From Escherichia phage vB_EcoM_DalCa, in the sequence record NC_054908.1: a DNA stretch of 64,000 bases; one strand, given 5' to 3'. This document shows positions 4,177 through 37,664 of this stretch, in pieces (position 1 is the first letter of the stretch; every line of letters starts with the position of its first letter). Under the pieces are notes generated by a model. The model made no database searches. It saw only the letters and a list, made by a program, of their open reading frames with translations, and was not told the DNA's origin. A program made the position numbers and the translations under genes.

Positions 4177-4201
4177 ATTTTACCAAAATTTTATAAAGCA
4201 A
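4177..4201 (-). promoter_or_regulatory. Candidate MotA-dependent middle promoter for a-gt
   Basis: On minus strand TTGCTTTAT (MotA-box-like) followed after about 11 nt by TAAAAT, about 25 nt upstream of a-gt ATG. Confidence 0.35.
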
Positions 4202-4202
4202 T

Positions 4203-4222
4203 ATAGGAGCCGAAGCTCCTAT
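4203..4222 (-). terminator. Putative intrinsic terminator upstream of a-gt promoter region
   Basis: ATAGGAGC-CGAA-GCTCCTAT hairpin followed on minus by A/T-rich run. Confidence 0.4.
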
Positions 4223-4395
4223 CCACATAATACGCCATACAGAGGCTCATTAGAACTTTTAAATTTTATGCGCTTATATTTTATAGTTCCTTCTGCTTTA
4301 GCTTTATCATGAGACGCTTTAAAGAGTCTCATCATTTCCTCTTTAGAGGAACGAATTTTATTATAATCTATTTCAGAAGTCTGGGTGTTCATCTT

Positions 4396-4602
4396 TCATA
4401 ACTGCCACCATTTTTTGACTTGATAAGAATCAACCCACACTTTCATATTAGGGTCTGCTCTTACAATAGGAGGATTAACTTCTTTAATTGAACTATCATG
4501 GTATTCTTTTTCAGAAATTTTCACACAAAGATGACCATTCAAAGATTCAGTAAATCCTGCATTAATTTTAAGACGCTTGAATTTTACGTGTGTAAGCATC
4601 AA
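4396..4602 (-). CDS. Hypothetical protein
   Basis: 68-aa ORF in a-gt/55 intergenic block. Confidence 0.4.
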   Translation of the reverse strand: MMLTHVKFKRLKINAGFTESLNGHLCVKISEKEYHDSSIKEVNPPIVRADPNMKVWVDSYQVKKWWQL

Positions 4603-30253: not shown

Positions 30254-30670
30254 TTAAATGTAAATATTTTTGCCGTAATACTTATACCAGTGTGGCTTCA
30301 TTAAAATTTTTTCATCGAGTCGTTGTTGACTCAACTTAATAGCTGATTTGCATGGATTATAATCATTTTTCCATTCTACTGGAATATCGCTGATGTCAGG
30401 AACTTCAGTATCTTTTATACTGAACCCGCGTTTTAAGCATTCCGTTATAATGTCCGATTGACGCTTTCGCAAAAATTCTAACTTATCGTAAAAGAAAGTA
30501 ACATGACCAGAACCTAAAATAAATTTAGAAGATATTTTAAAATCTTTAACGCGCTTACCGTTTGCCACATGCTTACGAACTATACCAAAAACACGCGGCA
30601 ATTCACGGTATTCTGCGATTAAATGTTGATCAGCAAGTTCAGATACTAAAGTCAAATTAATACGAGTCAT
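30254..30670 (-). CDS. denV: Endonuclease V (pyrimidine-dimer DNA glycosylase/AP lyase)
   Basis: 138 aa; recognised T4 endo V sequence [17 protein letters not shown]... Confidence 0.9.
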
Positions 30671-30695
30671 TTTATCCCTCCAAGTAACTGTGAAT

Positions 30696-30724
30696 ATACT
30701 ATCACAATTCTAGGAGAAAGTAAA
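30696..30724 (-). promoter_or_regulatory. T4 early-type promoter upstream of denV
   Basis: Minus -35 GTTTACT, 17-bp spacer, -10 TAGTAT; lies between e and denV. Confidence 0.5.
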
Positions 30725-30729
30725 CAACT

Positions 30730-31260
<531 letters not shown>

Positions 31261-31716
31261 TTAAAAGAGGCTGTTCATTATTCGGTAAAGTGAAGGACCC
31301 ATCACATATTGCCACTGAGTACGAGGAATAAGAGCAAAAGCATCCATCTCTGGAATCATAACGCCATCTTTATTTTCAAAATAAGACTCGCAATGGCAAT
31401 TTCTAAACATCTCATGCTCTACTGGAATCGTATAATAAAATAACTGTAAGTCTTTATTACTAGAATATTTAAATACACCTAAGTCTTCTAGAAGGTCTGG
31501 ATTATAATCGATAAAACCAGTCTCTTCTGAGCATTCTCTTTTTGCAGCTTCCAGTGCATTCAAATCAGAACTTTCTACGCGGCCCTTTGGAATATCCCAG
31601 CGATGTGCCATCATTCCAGGCTTACGAGAACCAGTAACCCGACCCATAAATAAATCTTTATCTTCTGTCATAAAGATAATACCAGCTGATAGTGTTTTCA
31701 TTTTAATTTCCTGCAT
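31261..31716 (-). CDS. nudE: Nudix hydrolase
   Basis: 151 aa; Nudix box GRVESSDLNALEAAKRECSEETGF; position immediately after e as T4 e.1. Confidence 0.75.
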   Translation of the reverse strand: MQEIKMKTLSAGIIFMTEDKDLFMGRVTGSRKPGMMAHRWDIPKGRVESSDLNALEAAKRECSEETGFIDYNPDLLEDLGVFKYSSNKDLQLFYYTIPVEHEMFRNCHCESYFENKDGVMIPEMDAFALIPRTQWQYVMGPSLYRIMNSLF

Positions 31717-32186
31717 TCAGTGATAAAGTTATTTAAATTTTGAGTATATTTCTTTTCATCAAAAATCTTTTGTTGTCTGCGTAAACGCCATGGCATTTCA
31801 ATGAACATACGCCATATTCCTGATAATACTGCTGCTGTAAAAATATTAACAAGTATAGTTAAAAGAACCCAATCTCCTATTCTGTCCATTGGATTTTTTA
31901 TAAAAAAGTAAAATACGAACGATGATATAGGAAGACTAATGATATACCACAGAAGAACCTTCTTATCTGTGAACCAATCAGCATTCGTTAACTTAGCGCG
32001 ACCGTTTTGAATACATACGAACTTATCATCTGTTACAGTAAATGGCTTAGCTGCTTGATATCCCATTCTAAACTCCCTAATCAACAAATTTTTCATATCT
32101 TCGGAACAACCATTCCAGTCAACTCTATCAACTGAAATGCCATCATCCCCATCATCTAAATCATACCAGCGAGTTTTTAAAATCAT
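31698..32186 (-). CDS. Hypothetical membrane protein (paralog group with next two ORFs)
   Basis: 162 aa; central hydrophobic helices; C-terminal ...FITECRKLK. Confidence 0.5.
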   Translation of the reverse strand: MILKTRWYDLDDGDDGISVDRVDWNGCSEDMKNLLIREFRMGYQAAKPFTVTDDKFVCIQNGRAKLTNADWFTDKKVLLWYIISLPISSFVFYFFIKNPMDRIGDWVLLTILVNIFTAAVLSGIWRMFIEMPWRLRRQQKIFDEKKYTQNLNNFITECRKLK

Positions 32187-32545
32187 TTAATTTTCCTACA
32201 ATCACTCACAAACTCTTCCATTGATTCTTTTTCAATATAAGACATATAGCTATTATATTCCTTTAATTGTATTTTGTAATCCTTTTTTCTTTGCCAATTT
32301 ATTTTAAAATTATCATAATGAAAATATAACATGGTACCAAAGAATGAAAATAATGAAATCGCTATAGTAAAACGAAGTTCACTCCAAACCTCTGTTATAA
32401 TTACTGTGCCGTCGATATTTAAAATAAAACAGTCAATTAACAATCCAATAAGACTACCCGCAAGAGCTGTAAATACTGATACAGCAAGAATTAATAGTGC
32501 CTCAGGAAACGAATATTTGACTTTATTTAGTTTTGGCTTTTGCAT
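32183..32545 (-). CDS. Hypothetical membrane protein (paralog group)
   Basis: 120 aa; two TM helices; C-terminal ...FVSDCRKIK. Confidence 0.5.
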   Translation of the reverse strand: MQKPKLNKVKYSFPEALLILAVSVFTALAGSLIGLLIDCFILNIDGTVIITEVWSELRFTIAISLFSFFGTMLYFHYDNFKINWQRKKDYKIQLKEYNSYMSYIEKESMEEFVSDCRKIK

Positions 32546-32940
32546 CGTGATTCCTTAACAAATTTCATAATTTCATCAAATTCATACATATCTAGCTTAA
32601 GCTGGTGTTCCTTTTTAATCTTTTTACACTGAGCTTTCCAATCACGTACACGTTTACGATAATGTCTTCCTTGATACCAGTATCCTACCCAATTTACGGG
32701 TACTAATAAAAGTGGAACTATTAATGGAAGAATTAGCATTAACACAAGTATTTCGCCAGAATCAATATCAGTCATAACATCTAAAACACCTCCAATAATC
32801 AATAGAATTACAAATGATATGAGTATAACAGGACCTATTAACACATCAGTAGAAATTATCTGACGCTTTGGTTCATACTTCACAGGTTTACTTGGAAGGT
32901 ATAGTGATGGTTTTGACATATTCTCTACATTCCTTAACAA
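32527..32940 (-). CDS. Hypothetical membrane protein (paralog group)
   Basis: 137 aa; two TM helices; C-terminal ...FVKESRCKSQN. Confidence 0.5.
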   Translation of the reverse strand: MLRNVENMSKPSLYLPSKPVKYEPKRQIISTDVLIGPVILISFVILLIIGGVLDVMTDIDSGEILVLMLILPLIVPLLLVPVNWVGYWYQGRHYRKRVRDWKAQCKKIKKEHQLKLDMYEFDEIMKFVKESRCKSQN

Positions 32941-33502
32941 ATTTTTCTAGTAATAAATCACTTTCAAAATTGGGATTTTCTACAAATTTATCAAAAAGAT
33001 CATCAACAATAGTTAAGATATTCTTTTTACTAAGAATACGTTTATTTTCATGCTTCGTTTCAGAATCAACTATAAGAGTAAAGAAATATTTCTTGCCCTG
33101 AAATTTTACAGTAGTATCAATATAAAATAAATTTGACTTTTGTAAATTACGTTTAAACCATGCGTCACTTAAACTATAAACACCGAGATAATCAAAATCG
33201 TCGTTTAAATAACAAACCGTCCATTCAGGAGAAATGAAATCAGTAAATTCAACATCAAAATCACACGTCAATGAATGAATTGATTCAATACTGTTAATGA
33301 GTATTCCAGGACGTATTAAAGACTTTTTACCTCTAGAAAATCTTCCGGAAAGGCTTTCATCAGTTTCATATGAAGACCCCCAATAGTAATTACGTCCTTC
33401 TGCCATGCGTTTAAGAGCATTTAGTAATTGGTCTGGAACATCAACCTGTCTTTGGAACTCTTCAAACATTGAATTGAAATCACTTTGCATTTTCATTTTC
33501 AT
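32888..33502 (-). CDS. Hypothetical protein
   Basis: 204-aa ORF. Confidence 0.5.
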   Translation of the reverse strand: MKMKMQSDFNSMFEEFQRQVDVPDQLLNALKRMAEGRNYYWGSSYETDESLSGRFSRGKKSLIRPGILINSIESIHSLTCDFDVEFTDFISPEWTVCYLNDDFDYLGVYSLSDAWFKRNLQKSNLFYIDTTVKFQGKKYFFTLIVDSETKHENKRILSKKNILTIVDDLFDKFVENPNFESDLLLEKFVKECREYVKTITIPSK

Positions 33503-33520
33503 TCCTATTTACTCCAAGTA

Positions 33521-33540
33521 TAAGGGGCCGAAGCCCCTTA
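33521..33540 (-). terminator. Putative terminator hairpin downstream of 33544..34137
   Basis: TAAGGGGC-CGAA-GCCCCTTA palindrome; weak U-tract. Confidence 0.4.
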
Positions 33541-33543
33541 TCA

Positions 33544-34137
33544 TTATTTCAGAGAATTAATGTATTCCTGAACATCGGCAGAGGTAGTTTCAACCCCAGA
33601 AATATTACCGTTAAAGGTTTCAACTCGAGCAAGGGTATCTTCAATATCAACCTTAGTCAGTGCTGCAATTTCAACTACATCATCAGCAGTACTAATTCCA
33701 AGGGCATTTGCTGCACGAGTTTCACGGATATATTCCAATTTAACCGCAAGTTCTTGACGAGCATCATCTAACTCAACTACTTTCTTGGCGATTTCAATTC
33801 GCATTTCAGCATAACCGTCAGCCTTAGTAGTCAACTGCTCAGCTGTTCGACGATATAGTAAACCGAGTTTAGCATGCATTGTTACATCTTGGCCTTCGGA
33901 AAGAAGTTTACGAATTTCACGCTCTTTTGATTCGGCCTGTCGATTCTTTTCGATAACAAGTTCACGAATACGTTTTTCTTCGTTAATAGATTTAACAGAA
34001 GCAGTTTTTAGATCTTTAATTTTATCAAGTAGTTTTGCTGCTGCAGCAGTATACTGTTCTTCGACAGATAGATTTTTAGCCATAGCAGAACCAAGTTTAG
34101 TGCGAATAAACTCAACAATTTTCTTCAGTGTGTTCAT
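33544..34137 (-). CDS. Hypothetical coiled-coil protein (PspA/IM30-like architecture?)
   Basis: 197 aa, almost entirely predicted alpha-helical coiled-coil with E/K/R-rich heptads. Confidence 0.5.
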
Positions 34138-34208
34138 AGTATTTCCTTAGGTTAATTGAGATTTAAAATCCGTAGGAGTATAATACTCTATCGTCAAATT
34201 ATAGGCTC

Positions 34209-34237
34209 ATAATATCTCAATCATGAGCCTGCGTAAA
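34209..34237 (-). promoter_or_regulatory. Candidate T4 early-type promoter upstream of 33544..34137
   Basis: Minus -35 GTTTACG, 17-bp spacer, -10 TATTAT. Confidence 0.4.
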
Positions 34238-34238
34238 C

Positions 34239-34502
34239 TTATTTCATATTATTGAAATATTCTTCTGCGATTTCGTCGTTATCATGGTAAACTTTAGAAG
34301 ACAGTTTAACATAACCTTCTGCTGTGAACATATTAATCACAACTTTTACAGTATACCACTGACCGTCTTCATTACCCATTACTGCGTAAGTTTCAAACAT
34401 CGGATGATCAGGACCGATAACTTTAATATCATTCACTGTACGACCGAAATCTTCTGAAACGCATTTCATAAAGAAGTTGAACAGTTCGCCGTAATTATCC
34501 AT
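34239..34502 (-). CDS. Hypothetical protein
   Basis: ORF 34239..34622 trimmed to ATG (MDNYGELF) preceded by GGAG; upstream 40 codons lie in a conserved promoter module. Confidence 0.45.
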   Translation of the reverse strand: MDNYGELFNFFMKCVSEDFGRTVNDIKVIGPDHPMFETYAVMGNEDGQWYTVKVVINMFTAEGYVKLSSKVYHDNDEIAEEYFNNMK

Positions 34503-34535: not shown

Positions 34536-34564
34536 TGATAGTTGTATAGTACCATGGAAGAACA
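34536..34564 (-). promoter_or_regulatory. T4 early-type promoter module upstream of 34239..34502
   Basis: TTGATAGTTGTATAGTACC...TGTAAACAGTTTTGTGAAAAAATTTTTAGGG on plus. Confidence 0.5.
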
Positions 34565-34731
34565 GAGATGTAAACAGTTTTGTGAAAAAATTTTTAGGGA
34601 ATTCTAGGGCAGGGATGGGCAATTAAAGGATAGGATAATATATTATAAAGGGTATAAACTAAATGATGCCTAGAGAGGTCCAGAAAGGCCTAGATACCAA
34701 AAAGCCCTATCATTTAGATAGGGATTTAAAA

Positions 34732-35295
34732 TTATTTACCTAGTTTACTTATTATAGCTTCTGCAGCAGCTTTTAGCTTAGATGCAGTGTTAATACGATT
34801 TTTAATTTCAGTATACGCATCGCCAAGAACATCAAGGCTATCAGAATAAACACTTACACTATTGCGTTCGCTATTTGAAATAGAACCTTTAGTTTTGCGG
34901 TCAAAATCGGTGTACACGTCTTGAAGATCGCGGGCTGCCTTCTTTGCATCATCCAATGCATCAAGAGCTTTATTCAAAGCATTAACGTATTTTTTAGTGT
35001 CGAACATATTCTTAGAAATTTTAACAGGTGCGCGTTCAGGAGTAGCTAACACAGATTTAGGAACCTGAGCGCCAGATGCCAATTTCTTAGAAATTTTGAA
35101 AAATGCTTTATTGAATTTATTTTCTTGACTCATTGTAAAAGAACTATTATCGATGTTGTACATTTCAATAGCTTTAGCTTTCCACTTAAGAAAATCGCCG
35201 CGGTCTTTTGGGTCCAATTGGAAGAATACTTTAGTAAGATCTGCTTCAGATGGTAATTTTGCTGCTTCGGTTAAAAATTCGGCATAGGTTTTCAT
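34732..35295 (-). CDS. Internal-protein-like capsid-targeted protein (IP family candidate)
   Basis: 187 aa; N-terminus MKTYAEFLTEA resembles the T4 internal-protein capsid-targeting sequence (MKTYQEFIAE) ending in an L-x-E prohead-protease-type site. Confidence 0.55.
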   Translation of the reverse strand: MKTYAEFLTEAAKLPSEADLTKVFFQLDPKDRGDFLKWKAKAIEMYNIDNSSFTMSQENKFNKAFFKISKKLASGAQVPKSVLATPERAPVKISKNMFDTKKYVNALNKALDALDDAKKAARDLQDVYTDFDRKTKGSISNSERNSVSVYSDSLDVLGDAYTEIKNRINTASKLKAAAEAIISKLGK

Positions 35296-35420: not shown

Positions 35421-35894
35421 TCATTTGATTTGTTTAGCAGACCAAATGCGGTCTTTAATAATTTTTTGGATGTCTTCAACATACTCAAGAGAGTGAACAT
35501 GTGGATTATCTTTGAAACTATAAGCACGGGCTAACTTTTGGCCTTCGGTTTTGATTACTAAAAGCTCTTTAAGGATAGCTTCATATTTAGCGATAATTCC
35601 TTTAACGATATTTTTTTCTTGTGCCGCTTTAGGATCTGCTTTAGGAGCAGGTTTACCCGAAGCCTTTGCAAAAGCAGCGCCAGTAGCAACTAAACTTTTC
35701 CAGGCCATACTAACTGCATTTCCCGTAAATCCTTCCGCTTTCATGTCGCGTGCAAACTGGAATCGCGATTCATCAGAAGCATCTTTATAGGAATATTTAC
35801 CCGCGGCAATGGCAGCTTTTGCAACAGCTTGAATTTCGGTGCTAGATGCTTCATTTAACACCGCTTCATTTAAAAATTGAGTATATGATTTCAT
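35421..35894 (-). CDS. Internal-protein-like capsid-targeted protein (IP family candidate)
   Basis: ORF 35421..36071 trimmed to ATG (MKSYTQFLNEA) preceded by AGGAAA; CTS-like N-terminus; TATAAATA late-promoter motif upstream; terminator hairpin downstream. Confidence 0.55.
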   Translation of the reverse strand: MKSYTQFLNEAVLNEASSTEIQAVAKAAIAAGKYSYKDASDESRFQFARDMKAEGFTGNAVSMAWKSLVATGAAFAKASGKPAPKADPKAAQEKNIVKGIIAKYEAILKELLVIKTEGQKLARAYSFKDNPHVHSLEYVEDIQKIIKDRIWSAKQIK

Positions 35895-36646: not shown

Positions 36647-36722
36647 TGGTCGAGGCAGTAGGGATCGAACCTACGACCTAGGACTTAGAAGGTCCTTGCT
36701 CTTCCTTCTGAGCTATGCCCCG
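36647..36722 (-). tRNA. tRNA-Arg (anticodon UCU), CCA encoded
   Basis: Manual fold of reverse complement: 7-bp acceptor stem, anticodon arm AGGAC-CUUCUAA-GUCCU, T-arm GTAGG-TTCGATC-CCTAC; 76 nt. Confidence 0.8.
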
Positions 36723-36726
36723 TAAT

Positions 36727-36802
36727 TGGGGTGACCGATGGGAGTCGAACCCATGACTACGAGAATCACAATCTCGAGTTCTACCAACTGAACTACGGCC
36801 AC
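36727..36802 (-). tRNA. tRNA-His (anticodon GUG), CCA encoded
   Basis: Manual fold: D-stem GTTC/GAAC, anticodon arm CGAGA-UUGUGAU-UCUCG, T-arm ATGGG-TTCGACT-CCCAT, discriminator C; not part of the 8-tRNA T4 set. Confidence 0.75.
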
Positions 36803-36916
36803 ATTAATACCTACTCCAACAATCAAGATGTCTTCACACGAAATTAAGAGAAGAGTGATCAGTTCAACCCCTATAATCGCGTCAAGTAGATATTAATGTG
36901 ACAGTTGTCACAAATT

Positions 36917-36991
36917 TGGCGGACGTGATAGGATTCGAACCTATAACCAATCGCTTAACAGGCGATCGCTCTGCCATTGAGCTACACATCC
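36917..36991 (-). tRNA. tRNA-Asn (anticodon GUU), CCA encoded
   Basis: Manual fold: anticodon arm ATCGC-CUGUUAA-GCGAT, T-arm with GGTTCGAATCC; not part of the T4 set. Confidence 0.75.
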
Positions 36992-36995
36992 AAAT

Positions 36996-37082
36996 TGGTG
37001 GGGAGTGGTGGAGTCGAACCACCCGAGTCGCAATGACAATGGATTTACAGTCCACACCGCTACCTCTACGGGATAACTCCCC
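36996..37082 (-). tRNA. tRNA-Tyr (anticodon GUA), class II long variable arm, CCA encoded
   Basis: Manual fold: acceptor GGGGAGT/ACTCCCC, anticodon loop CUGUAAA, long variable arm, T-arm GGTGG-TTCGACT-CCACC; 87 nt; not part of the T4 set. Confidence 0.7.
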
Positions 37083-37091
37083 AAATTAATT

Positions 37092-37166
37092 TGGTGGCCC
37101 TGGGTGGAATTGAACCACCATCTGGCGATTATGAGTCGCTTGCTTGAACCTTCCAGCTACAGGGCC
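37092..37166 (-). tRNA. tRNA with anticodon CAU (Met or lysidine-modified Ile), CCA encoded
   Basis: Manual fold: acceptor GGCCCTG/CAGGGCC, anticodon loop CUCAUAA, T-arm GGTGG-TTCAATT-CCACC; cannot separate Met from Ile(LAU) by eye. Confidence 0.65.
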
Positions 37167-37167
37167 T

Positions 37168-37243
37168 TGGTGCTGATTGACGGAATCGAACCGCCGACCT
37201 TCTCATTACAAGTGAGTTGCTCTACCTACTGAGCTAAATCAGC
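37168..37243 (-). tRNA. tRNA-Thr (anticodon UGU), CCA encoded
   Basis: Manual fold: acceptor GCTGATT/AATCAGC, anticodon loop CUUGUAA, T-loop TTCGATT. Confidence 0.75.
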
Positions 37244-37248
37244 AAAAC

Positions 37249-37338
37249 TGGCGGAGGCGATAGGATTTGAACCTATGAGTCGCCGGAGCGACTGCCGGTT
37301 TTCAAGACCGGTGCATTAAACCACTCTGCCACGCCTCC
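37249..37338 (-). tRNA. tRNA-Ser (anticodon UGA), class II, CCA encoded
   Basis: Manual fold: acceptor GGAGGCG/CGCCTCC, anticodon arm CCGGT-CUUGAAA-ACCGG, long variable arm; 90 nt. Confidence 0.8.
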
Positions 37339-37340
37339 AG

Positions 37341-37414
37341 TCTCCGTGGCAGGATTTGAACCTACGACATTCTACTCCCAAAGCAGACGCTCTACCAAAC
37401 TGAGCTACACGGAG
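37341..37414 (-). tRNA. tRNA-Pro (anticodon UGG), CCA not encoded
   Basis: Manual fold: acceptor CTCCGTG/CACGGAG, anticodon loop UUUGGGA, T-loop TTCAAAT; 3' end abuts tRNA-Ser 5' end, consistent with the T4-type Pro-Ser dimeric precursor. Confidence 0.75.
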
Positions 37415-37424
37415 TAAATTAAAT

Positions 37425-37498
<74 letters not shown>

Positions 37499-37503
37499 AA
37501 ATT

Positions 37504-37590
37504 TGGTGCGAGAAGTGGGACTCGAACCCACAAGGAAATCATTCCGCAGCATTTTAAGTGCTGTGCCTTTACCAATTTGGCCATTCTCGC
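37504..37590 (-). tRNA. tRNA-Leu (anticodon UAA), class II, CCA encoded
   Basis: Manual fold: acceptor GCGAGAA/TTCTCGC, anticodon arm CAGCA-CUUAAAA-UGCUG, long variable arm; 87 nt. Confidence 0.8.
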
Positions 37591-37591
37591 G

Positions 37592-37664
37592 CTGGGAATA
37601 AAGGACTCGAACCTTTGCATCCTGGAATCAAAATCCAGTGCCTTACCAACTTGGCTAATTCCCA
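37592..37664 (-). tRNA. tRNA-Gln (anticodon UUG), CCA not encoded
   Basis: Manual fold: acceptor TGGGAAT/ATTCCCA (U1-A72), anticodon arm CTGGA-UUUUGAU-TCCAG, T-arm AAAGG-TTCGAGT-CCTTT; 3' end abuts tRNA-Leu as in the T4 Gln-Leu dimeric precursor. Confidence 0.75.

What the first reader, a model, noticed from the sequence alone, without database searches (positions are those of the whole stretch)
33544..34137. Long coiled-coil protein with PspA/IM30-like architecture
The 197-aa product is almost entirely heptad-rich helix with charged repeats, an architecture seen in membrane-stress proteins such as PspA; a phage copy could modulate envelope stress or lysis timing. This is an architectural impression only.
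Basis: inference. Interest (0 to 1): 0.35.

Follow-up and report, generated by a model that had tools for sequence, protein, structure and literature searches.

The report
Phage T4 e.6: a PspA-like protein
This gene is the T4 "e.6" gene of unknown function, and it turns out to be a very diverged, shortened phage copy of the bacterial membrane-repair protein PspA/Vipp1, probably made early in infection to keep the host's inner membrane sealed and energised; what it actually does has not been tested.

Summary
The ORF is real: minus strand, 33544-34137, 197 aa. It is 98% identical to phage T4 gene e.6 ("conserved hypothetical") and sits in a Tequatrovirus window.

- **Direct hit:** the protein alone gets no Pfam or PDB hit.
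- **Profile vs solved structures:** a diverse family profile hits Vipp1/PspA collinearly from residue 1 (E 1e-4).
- **Profile-profile vs PspA/Vipp1:** probability 90%, P 1e-6; reversed and shuffled controls score at most 24 against 47.
- **Fold:** AlphaFold models (pLDDT 75 and 83) show an amphipathic α0, a long α1/α2-3 hairpin and short α4/α5. Foldseek's top 8-10 PDB hits are all Vipp1.
- **Relatives:** full-length homologues in Ackermannviridae (25% identity; profile-profile 99.7%) pass Pfam's own PspA_IM30 cut-off, and some are already named PspA/IM30.

A 2022 paper already proposed phrog_1203, this protein's PHROG, as PspA with an anti-abortive-infection role, without naming T4 e.6. In T4 the gene has early RNA and middle-phase protein, and two genome-wide screens found it dispensable.

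The most likely role is a phage-supplied membrane and proton-motive-force stabiliser. That is inferred, not shown. There is no link to lysis genes. This is a new member of a known kind, of moderate interest.

The parts
33544..34137 (-). e.6 coding sequence (197 aa), a compact PspA/IM30-like (ESCRT-III superfamily) protein
   Evidence: ORF; 98% identical to T4 e.6; phrog_1203 at E 1.6e-87; homology to PspA/Vipp1
34072..34134 (-). codons 2-22: N-terminal amphipathic helix alpha0 ([21 protein letters not shown]), the putative membrane anchor
   Evidence: Helix in both AlphaFold models. Hydrophobic moment 0.45 against 0.42-0.49 for E. coli PspA and 0.57-0.61 for Vipp1; net charge +4; shuffle p=0.06. 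Aligns to PspA/Vipp1 alpha0 from residue 1
33898..34065 (-). codons 25-80: helix alpha1, first arm of the hairpin
   Evidence: pLDDT 80-98; heptad periodicity p=0.004
33703..33882 (-). codons 86-145: helix alpha2/3, second arm of the hairpin. The hairpin tip ([15 protein letters not shown]) is the most conserved stretch of the family
   Evidence: pLDDT 88-95; conservation; hairpin superposes on Vipp1 6zvs_A with TM 0.72, rmsd 2.9 A over 123 columns
33616..33687 (-). codons 151-174: short alpha4 region carrying the ARVETF motif, which aligns to the PspA ARFESF / Vipp1 SAFERM motif
   Evidence: hhalign local and global alignments; lower pLDDT of 49-85
33550..33582 (-). codons 186-196: C-terminal helix ([10 protein letters not shown]), aligned to the end of PspA/Vipp1 alpha5 (IsEQLAQLKA / VEDELAALKA)
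   Evidence: Global hhalign; Y192, S195, L196 and K197 are nearly invariant in the close family
34144..34148 (-). ribosome-binding site AAGGA
   Evidence: Read from the sequence
34209..34237 (-). weak sigma-70-like promoter match (TTTACG-17-TATTAT) just upstream of e.6; it overlaps an 8-bp hairpin that follows the upstream gene
   Evidence: Consensus scan, 9 of 12 matches, no more sites than expected by chance in the region; sequence
34239..34502 (-). upstream small gene (87 aa, annotated g134c in fPS-90; the same length as T4 e.8), probably co-transcribed with e.6
   Evidence: Annotation of the 100% identical fPS-90 stretch; ORF. Orthology to T4 e.8 was not tested
34543..34575 (-). predicted T4-type early promoter (TTTACA-17-TG-TACTAT) that would drive the upstream gene and e.6
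   Evidence: Annotated as an early promoter in fPS-90; consensus scan; consistent with 'early RNA' for T4 e.6
33520..33541 (-). GC-rich UUCG-tetraloop hairpin right after the e.6 stop codon, annotated as a terminator in fPS-90; there is no U-run on the coding strand

Best explanation
The gene is the T4 e.6 orthologue and encodes a compact, highly diverged member of the PspA/IM30(Vipp1) family of the ESCRT-III superfamily. Shown or predicted here: (a) it is homologous to PspA/Vipp1 over its whole length; (b) the predicted fold has a cationic amphipathic helix alpha0, a long alpha1/alpha2-3 hairpin, a shortened alpha4 and a C-terminal alpha5-like helix; (c) in T4 it is transcribed early, the protein accumulates in the middle period, and it is dispensable in laboratory conditions. 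Inferred: like PspA and Vipp1, it binds the cytoplasmic face of the inner membrane through alpha0 and the hairpin. It then polymerises, hairpin to hairpin, with the C-terminal helix packing on a neighbour's conserved hairpin tip, into a coat that seals leaky membrane and preserves the proton-motive force. Established T4 biology says T4 shuts off host transcription and degrades host DNA, so an infected cell cannot induce its own sigma-54/PspF-dependent psp operon. The phage therefore brings a regulator-free effector. Keeping the membrane energised would prevent premature holin triggering or abortive death. The damage could come from injection or superinfection, or from host abortive-infection systems that depolarise the membrane (Rex-like systems).
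For: Identity: 98% to T4 e.6; phrog_1203. Homology to PspA/IM30: family profile A2 against PDB hits Vipp1 at E 9.9e-5, 1-146 to 1-147, and 8 of the top 9 hits are Vipp1/PspA. hhalign A2 against PspA/Vipp1 gives probability 90.5%, P 1.3e-6, score 46.8 over 168 columns from residue 1. It is still 78% (score 40.1) after removing the Pfam-positive members. Reversed and shuffled controls score at most 23.7. The global alignment also pairs the C-terminal motifs. Relatives P0066 and P0065 score 39.0 and 35.1 bits on PF04012, above the cut-off of 33.9. About 30 Ackermannviridae clusters carry PF04012, some named PspA/IM30. Those proteins are clear homologues of this one: BLASTP E 1e-13, 25% identity over 194 aa; profile-profile 99.7%, E 3e-26; found by the e.6 profile at E 1e-20 in 1.84 billion proteins. 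Fold: AlphaFold pLDDT 83; the Foldseek PDB top 10 are all Vipp1, best E 1.9e-4, then CdvB2. In BFVD, after the protein's own family come a PspA/IM30 protein of Acinetobacter phage ME3 and a giant-virus Snf7. alpha0 is amphipathic with charge +4. Expression: early RNA and middle protein in T4 (PMC9697503). The membrane/PMF and anti-Abi idea was proposed independently for phrog_1203 in a Kuttervirus (PMC9409062).
Against: The protein alone has no Pfam, NCBIfam or PDB hit. The profile of close T4-like relatives alone is not significant against PspA (score 23.1, no better than shuffles). The exhaustive HMM search reached no cellular PspA. The direct signal therefore depends on family diversity and on a transitive step. 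Helical, charge-rich proteins give biased scores, and the Foldseek TM-scores are only 0.4-0.5 with large rmsd (PspA-family chains adopt different open forms). alpha4/alpha5 is about 20-25 residues shorter than in PspA and is modelled with low confidence. No membrane binding, oligomerisation or phenotype is known. e.6 knock-down gave no fitness defect (CRISPRi-ART). All 43 insertion sites were tolerated in HIDEN-SEQ, with no significant depletion in the condition seen. No PspB, PspC or PspF-like partner and no conserved neighbour was found.
Confidence: 0.55

Rival explanations
1. Decoy or regulator: e.6 keeps the PspA hairpin as a binding surface and works by titrating a host partner of PspA rather than by coating membrane. 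The partner could be the activator PspF, the sensors PspB/PspC, or a defence component that uses PspA as an anchor, such as the CBASS cyclase that Cap2 conjugates to PspA. The result would be to blunt or hijack a host response.
For: It is homologous to PspA. In E. coli, PspA is also a negative regulator of PspF (established knowledge). A CBASS cyclase is conjugated specifically to PspA and released on infection (PMC11153139). Early expression fits a host-takeover factor.
Against: It is only about 13% identical to host E. coli PspA and scores better against cyanobacterial Vipp1 than against E. coli PspA (E 1e-4 against 1.3), so it is not a mimic of the host protein's surface. T4 shuts off host transcription anyway, which makes PspF control of little use. 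The most conserved parts (alpha0, hairpin tip, C-terminal helix) are the ones used for membrane binding and self-assembly in this family.
Confidence: 0.12
2. Active membrane remodelling for the phage's own purposes: an ESCRT-III-like polymer that bends or pinches the inner membrane. Possible uses are resealing the DNA-entry site, building membrane-attached replication or prohead-assembly sites, or shedding vesicles. This differs from passive stabilisation.
For: [quoted passage not shown] In Kuttervirus the gene lies among replication genes (ligase, gp59-like loader, primase/helicase) next to a predicted membrane protein. It is expressed early.
Against: No Vps4-like or other partner was found. 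There is no conserved neighbour between phage families. The gene is dispensable with no measurable fitness cost, which would be surprising for a step in replication or assembly. No such membrane structures are known to require e.6.
Confidence: 0.13
3. It is not a PspA relative at all: a generic helical coiled-coil protein whose similarity is compositional. Its job would be unrelated, for example a scaffold, a spanin-like protein, or the 'host specificity protein' named in many GenBank and UniRef records.
For: No direct Pfam hit; many weak hits to unrelated coiled-coil families; a weak PHROG hit to an Rz-like spanin at E 0.24; the close-family profile alone is not significant against PspA.
Against: The alignments are collinear from residue 1 to the C-terminal motif. 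Reversed, column-shuffled and heptad-block-shuffled controls stay at or below 23.7 against 46.8. Homologues pass Pfam's curated threshold. Foldseek ranks only Vipp1 at the top. T4 spanins are encoded elsewhere (established knowledge). No evidence supports the 'host specificity' label.
Confidence: 0.05

Closest known systems
Kuttervirus/Ackermannviridae PspA-like proteins (phrog_1203), e.g. Salmonella phage SeF3a Gp_125, Vi01, vB_SentM_sal1 QMV34086 'PspA/IM30 family protein'
   Same: Same PHROG (PMC9409062). Same length (~202 aa) and full-length homology: 25% identity, E 1e-13; profile-profile 99.7%. Same helix layout and the same C-terminal Y-L-x-S-L motif.
   Different: The Ackermannviridae proteins are close enough to cellular PspA to pass Pfam PF04012, whereas the T4-like clade is not. 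The genomic context differs: replication genes in one, the e-to-tRNA hyperplastic region in the other.
Escherichia coli PspA (phage shock protein A, PF04012)
   Same: alpha0 amphipathic helix, alpha1/alpha2-3 hairpin, the ARxExF motif of alpha4 and the xLxxLK end of alpha5 all align in order. The predicted role is peripheral inner-membrane binding and PMF maintenance.
   Different: About 13% identity. It is 197 aa against 222 aa, with two deletions (13 + 8 residues) in alpha4/alpha5. There are no pspBCDE/pspF partners. It is expressed from a phage early promoter rather than sigma-54/PspF. It is not a recent capture of the host gene.
Cyanobacterial/plastid Vipp1 (IM30), e.g. Synechocystis sll0617 (7o3w, 8qfv), Nostoc Vipp1 (6zvr)
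   Same: These are the best sequence-profile and fold matches. The hairpin superposes at 2.9 A over 123 columns.
   Different: e.6 lacks the Vipp1-specific C-terminal extension (alpha6). Nucleotide binding was not assessed. The biology differs: thylakoid maintenance.
Archaeal/eukaryotic ESCRT-III (CdvB2, Snf7/CHMP)
   Same: Same superfamily fold. These are the next Foldseek hits after Vipp1 (CdvB2 in PDB, a giant-virus Snf7 in BFVD).
   Different: There is no MIM motif or Vps4 partner, and the sequence signal is much weaker. e.6 has the N-terminal alpha0 typical of the bacterial branch.

Membership tests
T4 e.6 orthologous group / phrog_1203 | Full-length sequence match to T4 e.6 and to the PHROG profile | tested here: met
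   98% identity over 197/197 aa; phrog_1203 at E 1.6e-87, 1-197 to 1-199 of 200; syntenic position between e.5 and the tRNA cluster
PspA/IM30 family (Pfam PF04012) | This protein scores at or above Pfam's gathering threshold (33.9 bits) | tested here: not met
   No PF04012 hit even at E<=10 for this protein or the 30 closest relatives
PspA/IM30 family (Pfam PF04012) | Unambiguous full-length homologues pass the gathering threshold (transitive membership) | tested here: met
   P0066 at 39.0 bits and P0065 at 35.1 bits, model positions 2-143; about 30 clusters with precomputed PF04012; link to this protein by BLASTP E 1e-13, hhalign 99.7% and HMM E 1e-20
PspA/IM30 family (Pfam PF04012) | Profile-level similarity to bona fide PspA/Vipp1, collinear and above controls | tested here: met
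   Profile against PDB: Vipp1 at E 9.9e-5, 1-146 to 1-147. hhalign: probability 90.5%, P 1.3e-6, against controls scoring at most 23.7. Caveat: the PspA template alignment was shallow (Neff 2.1), and the close-family profile alone was not significant
ESCRT-III superfamily | Fold: long alpha1/alpha2-3 helical hairpin followed by shorter alpha4 and alpha5; an N-terminal alpha0 in the bacterial branch | tested here: met
   AlphaFold models with pLDDT 75 and 83 give helices 2-22, 25-80, 86-145, 151-160/165-174 and 186-196. The Foldseek top hits are Vipp1, then CdvB2. This is a prediction only, and alpha4/alpha5 is of low confidence
PspA/IM30 family | Amphipathic N-terminal helix able to bind membrane | tested here: inconclusive
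   Hydrophobic moment 0.45, similar to PspA; net charge +4; family median 0.41. However, shuffle p is only 0.06 and binding itself was not testable
PspA/IM30 family / ESCRT-III | Homo-oligomerisation into rings, rods or carpets on membranes; protection of the PMF | not testable with these tools
   Needs biochemistry or cryo-EM. Only a single-chain prediction was available
Proteobacterial Psp system (pspF-pspABCDE) | Operon partners PspB/PspC and the regulator PspF, with sigma-54 control | tested here: not met
   Neighbours have no Pfam hits. The flanks are e.5 and a small early gene with sigma-70/T4 early-type promoter matches. It is a stand-alone effector, not a Psp system
Rz-like spanin (phrog_1267) | Significant match to the spanin profile; paired i-/o-spanin genes | tested here: not met
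   E 0.24 with no stretch passing; no embedded or adjacent lipoprotein ORF

The most novel reading that the evidence does not exclude
T-even and Vi1-like phages carry their own minimal ESCRT-III-type membrane-repair polymer as a counter-defence. It would be expressed early, precisely because the phage has silenced the host's psp response. It would neutralise host abortive-infection effectors that kill by depolarising or perforating the inner membrane (Rex-like channels, transmembrane effectors of CBASS, retron or Thoeris-type systems, gasdermin-like pores). It would also stabilise the long lysis-inhibited state. If so, e.6 would be conditionally essential only on hosts that carry such systems, which would explain its dispensability in laboratory strains.
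Probability: 0.2. Interest if true: 0.8.

Novelty: new member of a known kind. Interest (0 to 1): 0.42.

Why it matters
T4 is the reference lytic phage, yet recent genome-wide studies still list e.6 as 'unknown function'. Placing it in the PspA/Vipp1/ESCRT-III superfamily gives a concrete, testable role to a gene conserved in more than 500 sequenced T4-like and Vi1-like phages. That role is membrane and proton-motive-force protection supplied by the virus itself. It would extend ESCRT-III-type membrane maintenance to bacterial viruses. It also suggests a general counter-measure against the many defence systems that act by membrane depolarisation. The novelty is limited. The PHROG this protein belongs to was already proposed to be PspA, with an anti-abortive-infection hypothesis, in 2022 (PMC9409062), and database records already name the Ackermannviridae relatives PspA/IM30.

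Tried and rejected
- **Direct searches with the single protein.** Pfam, PADLOC, NCBIfam and PDB phmmer gave nothing useful.
- **Exhaustive profile search.** The close-family profile against 1.84 billion representatives found only 45 e.6-like proteins and no cellular PspA.
- **Last homologue search.** The Ackermannviridae sub-alignment reached just one cellular-type PF04012 protein, at E 5.5.
- **Diverse PspA set.** The genome scan returned only Enterobacterales (78-99% identity). The hhalign template is therefore shallow: Enterobacterales plus one Vipp1 sequence copied from a PDB alignment.
- **Conserved partner gene.** T4-like e.5 and the Kuttervirus downstream membrane protein are unrelated. 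No neighbour has a Pfam domain.
- **Lysis-cassette reading.** Rejected: expression is early, six genes and a hairpin lie between e.6 and e, and the context differs in Kuttervirus.
- **Spanin and 'host specificity protein' labels.** Rejected (no supporting evidence anywhere).
- **Literature.** Searches for 'e.6' as a word were mostly noise. Searches for phage-encoded PspA or ESCRT-III in reviews found nothing. Only the last search turned up the 2022 Kuttervirus paper.
- **HIDEN-SEQ conditional screens.** Not read in full. Only the essentiality line and one condition line were seen for e.6.

Full report
**What is there.**
The window is a T4-type phage (Tequatrovirus). The 1.1-kb stretch around the finding is 100% identical to Yersinia phage fPS-90 and many Escherichia and Shigella phages, and it matches 532 phage records. 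The finding is an ATG-to-TAA ORF on the minus strand at 33544-34137, encoding 197 aa. It has an AAGGA ribosome-binding site. It is 98% identical (194/197) to phage T4 gene e.6, NP_049742, 'conserved hypothetical protein'.

The local gene order on the minus strand starts with the tRNA cluster. Next come two internal-protein-like ORFs, then a small gene of the same length as T4 e.8, then e.6, e.5, e.4, e.3 and e.2. Last come nudE, e (lysozyme) and denV.

In the identical fPS-90 annotation, an early promoter is predicted upstream of the small gene at window 34543-34575. A hairpin 'terminator' lies directly after the e.6 stop at window 33512-33548.

**Check of the observation.**
- AlphaFold models give helices 2-22, 25-80, 86-145, 151-160, 165-174 and 186-196.
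- 34% of residues are charged.
- A 3.5-residue hydrophobic periodicity is significant in helix 25-80 (p=0.004) and over 25-145 (p=0.011), but weaker in 86-145.
- The gene is real. It is conserved widely, and the T4 protein is seen by mass spectrometry.

**What it is.**
Taken alone, the protein has no Pfam, PADLOC, NCBIfam or PDB sequence match. It matches only phrog_1203, 'unknown function'.

The family is compact. An exhaustive profile search of 1.84 billion representative proteins found 45 members, all about 195-209 aa and all matched end to end. I built an alignment of 38 diverse members, down to 18% identity (A2). Four independent lines then converge on PspA/IM30 (Vipp1).

1. **Profile against PDB sequences.** Synechocystis Vipp1 scores E 9.9e-5, aligned 1-146 to 1-147. 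Eight of the top nine hits are Vipp1/PspA. With only close relatives, the same hits were present and collinear but not significant.
2. **Profile-profile comparison.** Against an alignment of enterobacterial PspA plus Vipp1, hhalign gives probability 90.5%, P 1.3e-6 and score 46.8 over 168 columns starting at residue 1 of both.
   - Controls scored far lower: reversed template 18.9, reversed query 19.2, 30 column shuffles at most 18.6, and 30 heptad-block shuffles at most 23.7.
   - Removing the four Pfam-positive members still gives score 40.1 (P 1.8e-5).
   - The close T4-like subfamily alone gives 23.1, which is not significant.
   - A global alignment also pairs ARVETF with the PspA ARFESF motif. 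It pairs the C-terminal [10 protein letters not shown] with the end of PspA alpha5 (IsEQLAQLKA), and needs two deletions of 13 and 8 residues.
3. **Fold.** The models have pLDDT 75 and 83. Foldseek against the PDB returns Vipp1 for the top 8 and top 10 hits respectively (best E 1.9e-4, probability 1.00), followed by the archaeal ESCRT-III protein CdvB2. The hairpin superposes on 6zvs_A with TM 0.72 and 2.9 A rmsd. Against viral models, the hits after the protein's own family are 'PspA/IM30 family protein' of Acinetobacter phage ME3 and a giant-virus Snf7.
4. **Transitivity.** Five of the 38 family members hit Pfam PF04012. Two are above Pfam's gathering threshold of 33.9 bits: P0066 at 39.0 and P0065 at 35.1.
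   - These are Ackermannviridae proteins (Kuttervirus and Klebsiella phages).
   - About 30 such clusters carry PF04012, and some are named 'PspA/IM30 family protein' or 'PspA protein'.
   - They are unambiguous homologues of the window protein: BLASTP 25% identity over 194 aa, E 1e-13, and profile-profile 99.7%, E 3e-26, full length.

I therefore regard homology to PspA/IM30 as established, at about 0.9. The caveat is that this clade itself fails Pfam's threshold.

**Anatomy.**
- alpha0 (residues 2-22) is amphipathic. Its hydrophobic moment is 0.45, against 0.42-0.49 for E. coli PspA and 0.57-0.61 for Vipp1. It is cationic, with net charge +4.
- The hairpin tip ([15 protein letters not shown]) and the C-terminal Y-x-x-S-L-K are the most conserved parts of the close family.
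- In Vipp1/PspA polymers, alpha5 packs on a neighbour's hairpin tip (established knowledge from the 2021 structures, listed). The conservation pattern is therefore what self-assembly would predict. This is inference.
- Compared with PspA, the protein is about 25 residues shorter in alpha4/alpha5. It has no Vipp1-type alpha6.

**Context and published data.**
- There are no PspB, PspC or PspF-like partners. Neighbours have no Pfam domains.
- In Kuttervirus the gene lies among replication genes, next to an unrelated membrane protein. No conserved module and no lysis-cassette link exists.
- T4 e.6 has early RNA and middle-phase protein (PMC9697503 supplement).
- It is 'Not Fit' in CRISPRi-ART, where it is still listed as 'unknown function, phrog_1203' (PMC11879866).
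- It is non-essential in HIDEN-SEQ, with 43 of 43 sites hit (bioRxiv 10.1101/2025.11.20.689424).

**Mechanism.**
The best-supported reading is a stand-alone, regulator-free PspA-type effector made by the phage early in infection. It would bind the inner membrane and polymerise to limit proton leak.

The rationale rests on established T4 biology. T4 shuts off host transcription, so the cell cannot induce psp. T4 also depends on an energised membrane to avoid premature holin triggering and to sustain lysis inhibition.

Rivals are a decoy for PspA partners (including the CBASS cyclase-PspA conjugation described in PMC11153139), active membrane remodelling, and a non-homologous coiled coil. I rate these at 0.12, 0.13 and 0.05.

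**Prior art and novelty.**
Gendre et al. 2022 (PMC9409062) had already reported, from HHpred against pdb70, that Kuttervirus SeF3a Gp_125 (phrog_1203) is homologous to PspA. They proposed the annotation 'phage_shock_protein_A' for phrog_1203. They hypothesised an anti-abortive-infection role through PMF protection. They did not mention T4 or e.6.

Reviews of bacterial ESCRT-III do not mention phage copies. The kind is therefore known. What is added here is the explicit, controlled placement of the T4 e.6 clade in it, its end-to-end collinearity with PspA, and its integration with T4 expression and dispensability data.

**Verdict.**
The function is inferred. This is a new member of a known kind, of moderate interest.

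Noticed in passing
window 31698-33502 (-): The four genes downstream of e.6 (e.5, e.4, e.3, e.2-like) end in a shared C-terminal motif: ...EKFVKECREYVKT, ...MKFVKESRCKSQN, ...EEFVSDCRKIK, ...NNFITECRKLK. e.2 to e.4 have obvious hydrophobic transmembrane stretches and overlapping reading frames. They may be paralogous small membrane proteins, or the motif may be a repeated junction sequence.
   Followed up: no
window 34732-35295 (-) and 35421-35894 (-): Two ORFs between the e.8-like gene and the tRNA cluster share only their first 11 residues (MKTYAEFLTEA / MKSYTQFLNEA). From memory, this resembles the capsid-targeting sequence of T4 internal proteins (IPI-III). They are probably variable internal-protein genes in the hyperplastic e-tRNA region. 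T4 itself has e.7, e.8 and rnaC/D here.
   Followed up: partly
window 36647-37664 (-): A cluster of 11 tRNA genes (Arg, His, Asn, Tyr, Met, Thr, Ser, Pro, Gly, Leu, Gln). T4 has 8, and T4 and fPS-90 have the segB homing endonuclease inside the cluster. Here tRNA-His, Asn and Tyr are extra, and no segB ORF is seen.
   Followed up: partly
window 33520-33541: A perfect GC-rich hairpin with a UUCG tetraloop (AAGGGGC-UUCG-GCCCCUU) lies between e.6 and e.5. It is annotated as a terminator in fPS-90 but has no U-run on the coding strand. It looks more like an RNA-stabilising or processing hairpin than an intrinsic terminator.
   Followed up: no
database records for e.6 homologues: Many GenBank and UniRef records label e.6 homologues 'host specificity protein', and one BFVD entry 'tail completion protein'. 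Nothing found here supports these labels. They look like propagated mis-annotations.
   Followed up: partly
L084 (phage RB43) 4001-4486: RB43 'e.6' is annotated as a 97-aa CDS (4193-4486), but the tblastn match to the family extends from 4001 (query residues 42-200). Either the start is mis-called or the gene is truncated or frameshifted in RB43.
   Followed up: no
window 30254-31224 (-): denV lies directly next to e (lysozyme). The ipII and ipIII genes that separate them in T4 are absent here.
   Followed up: no
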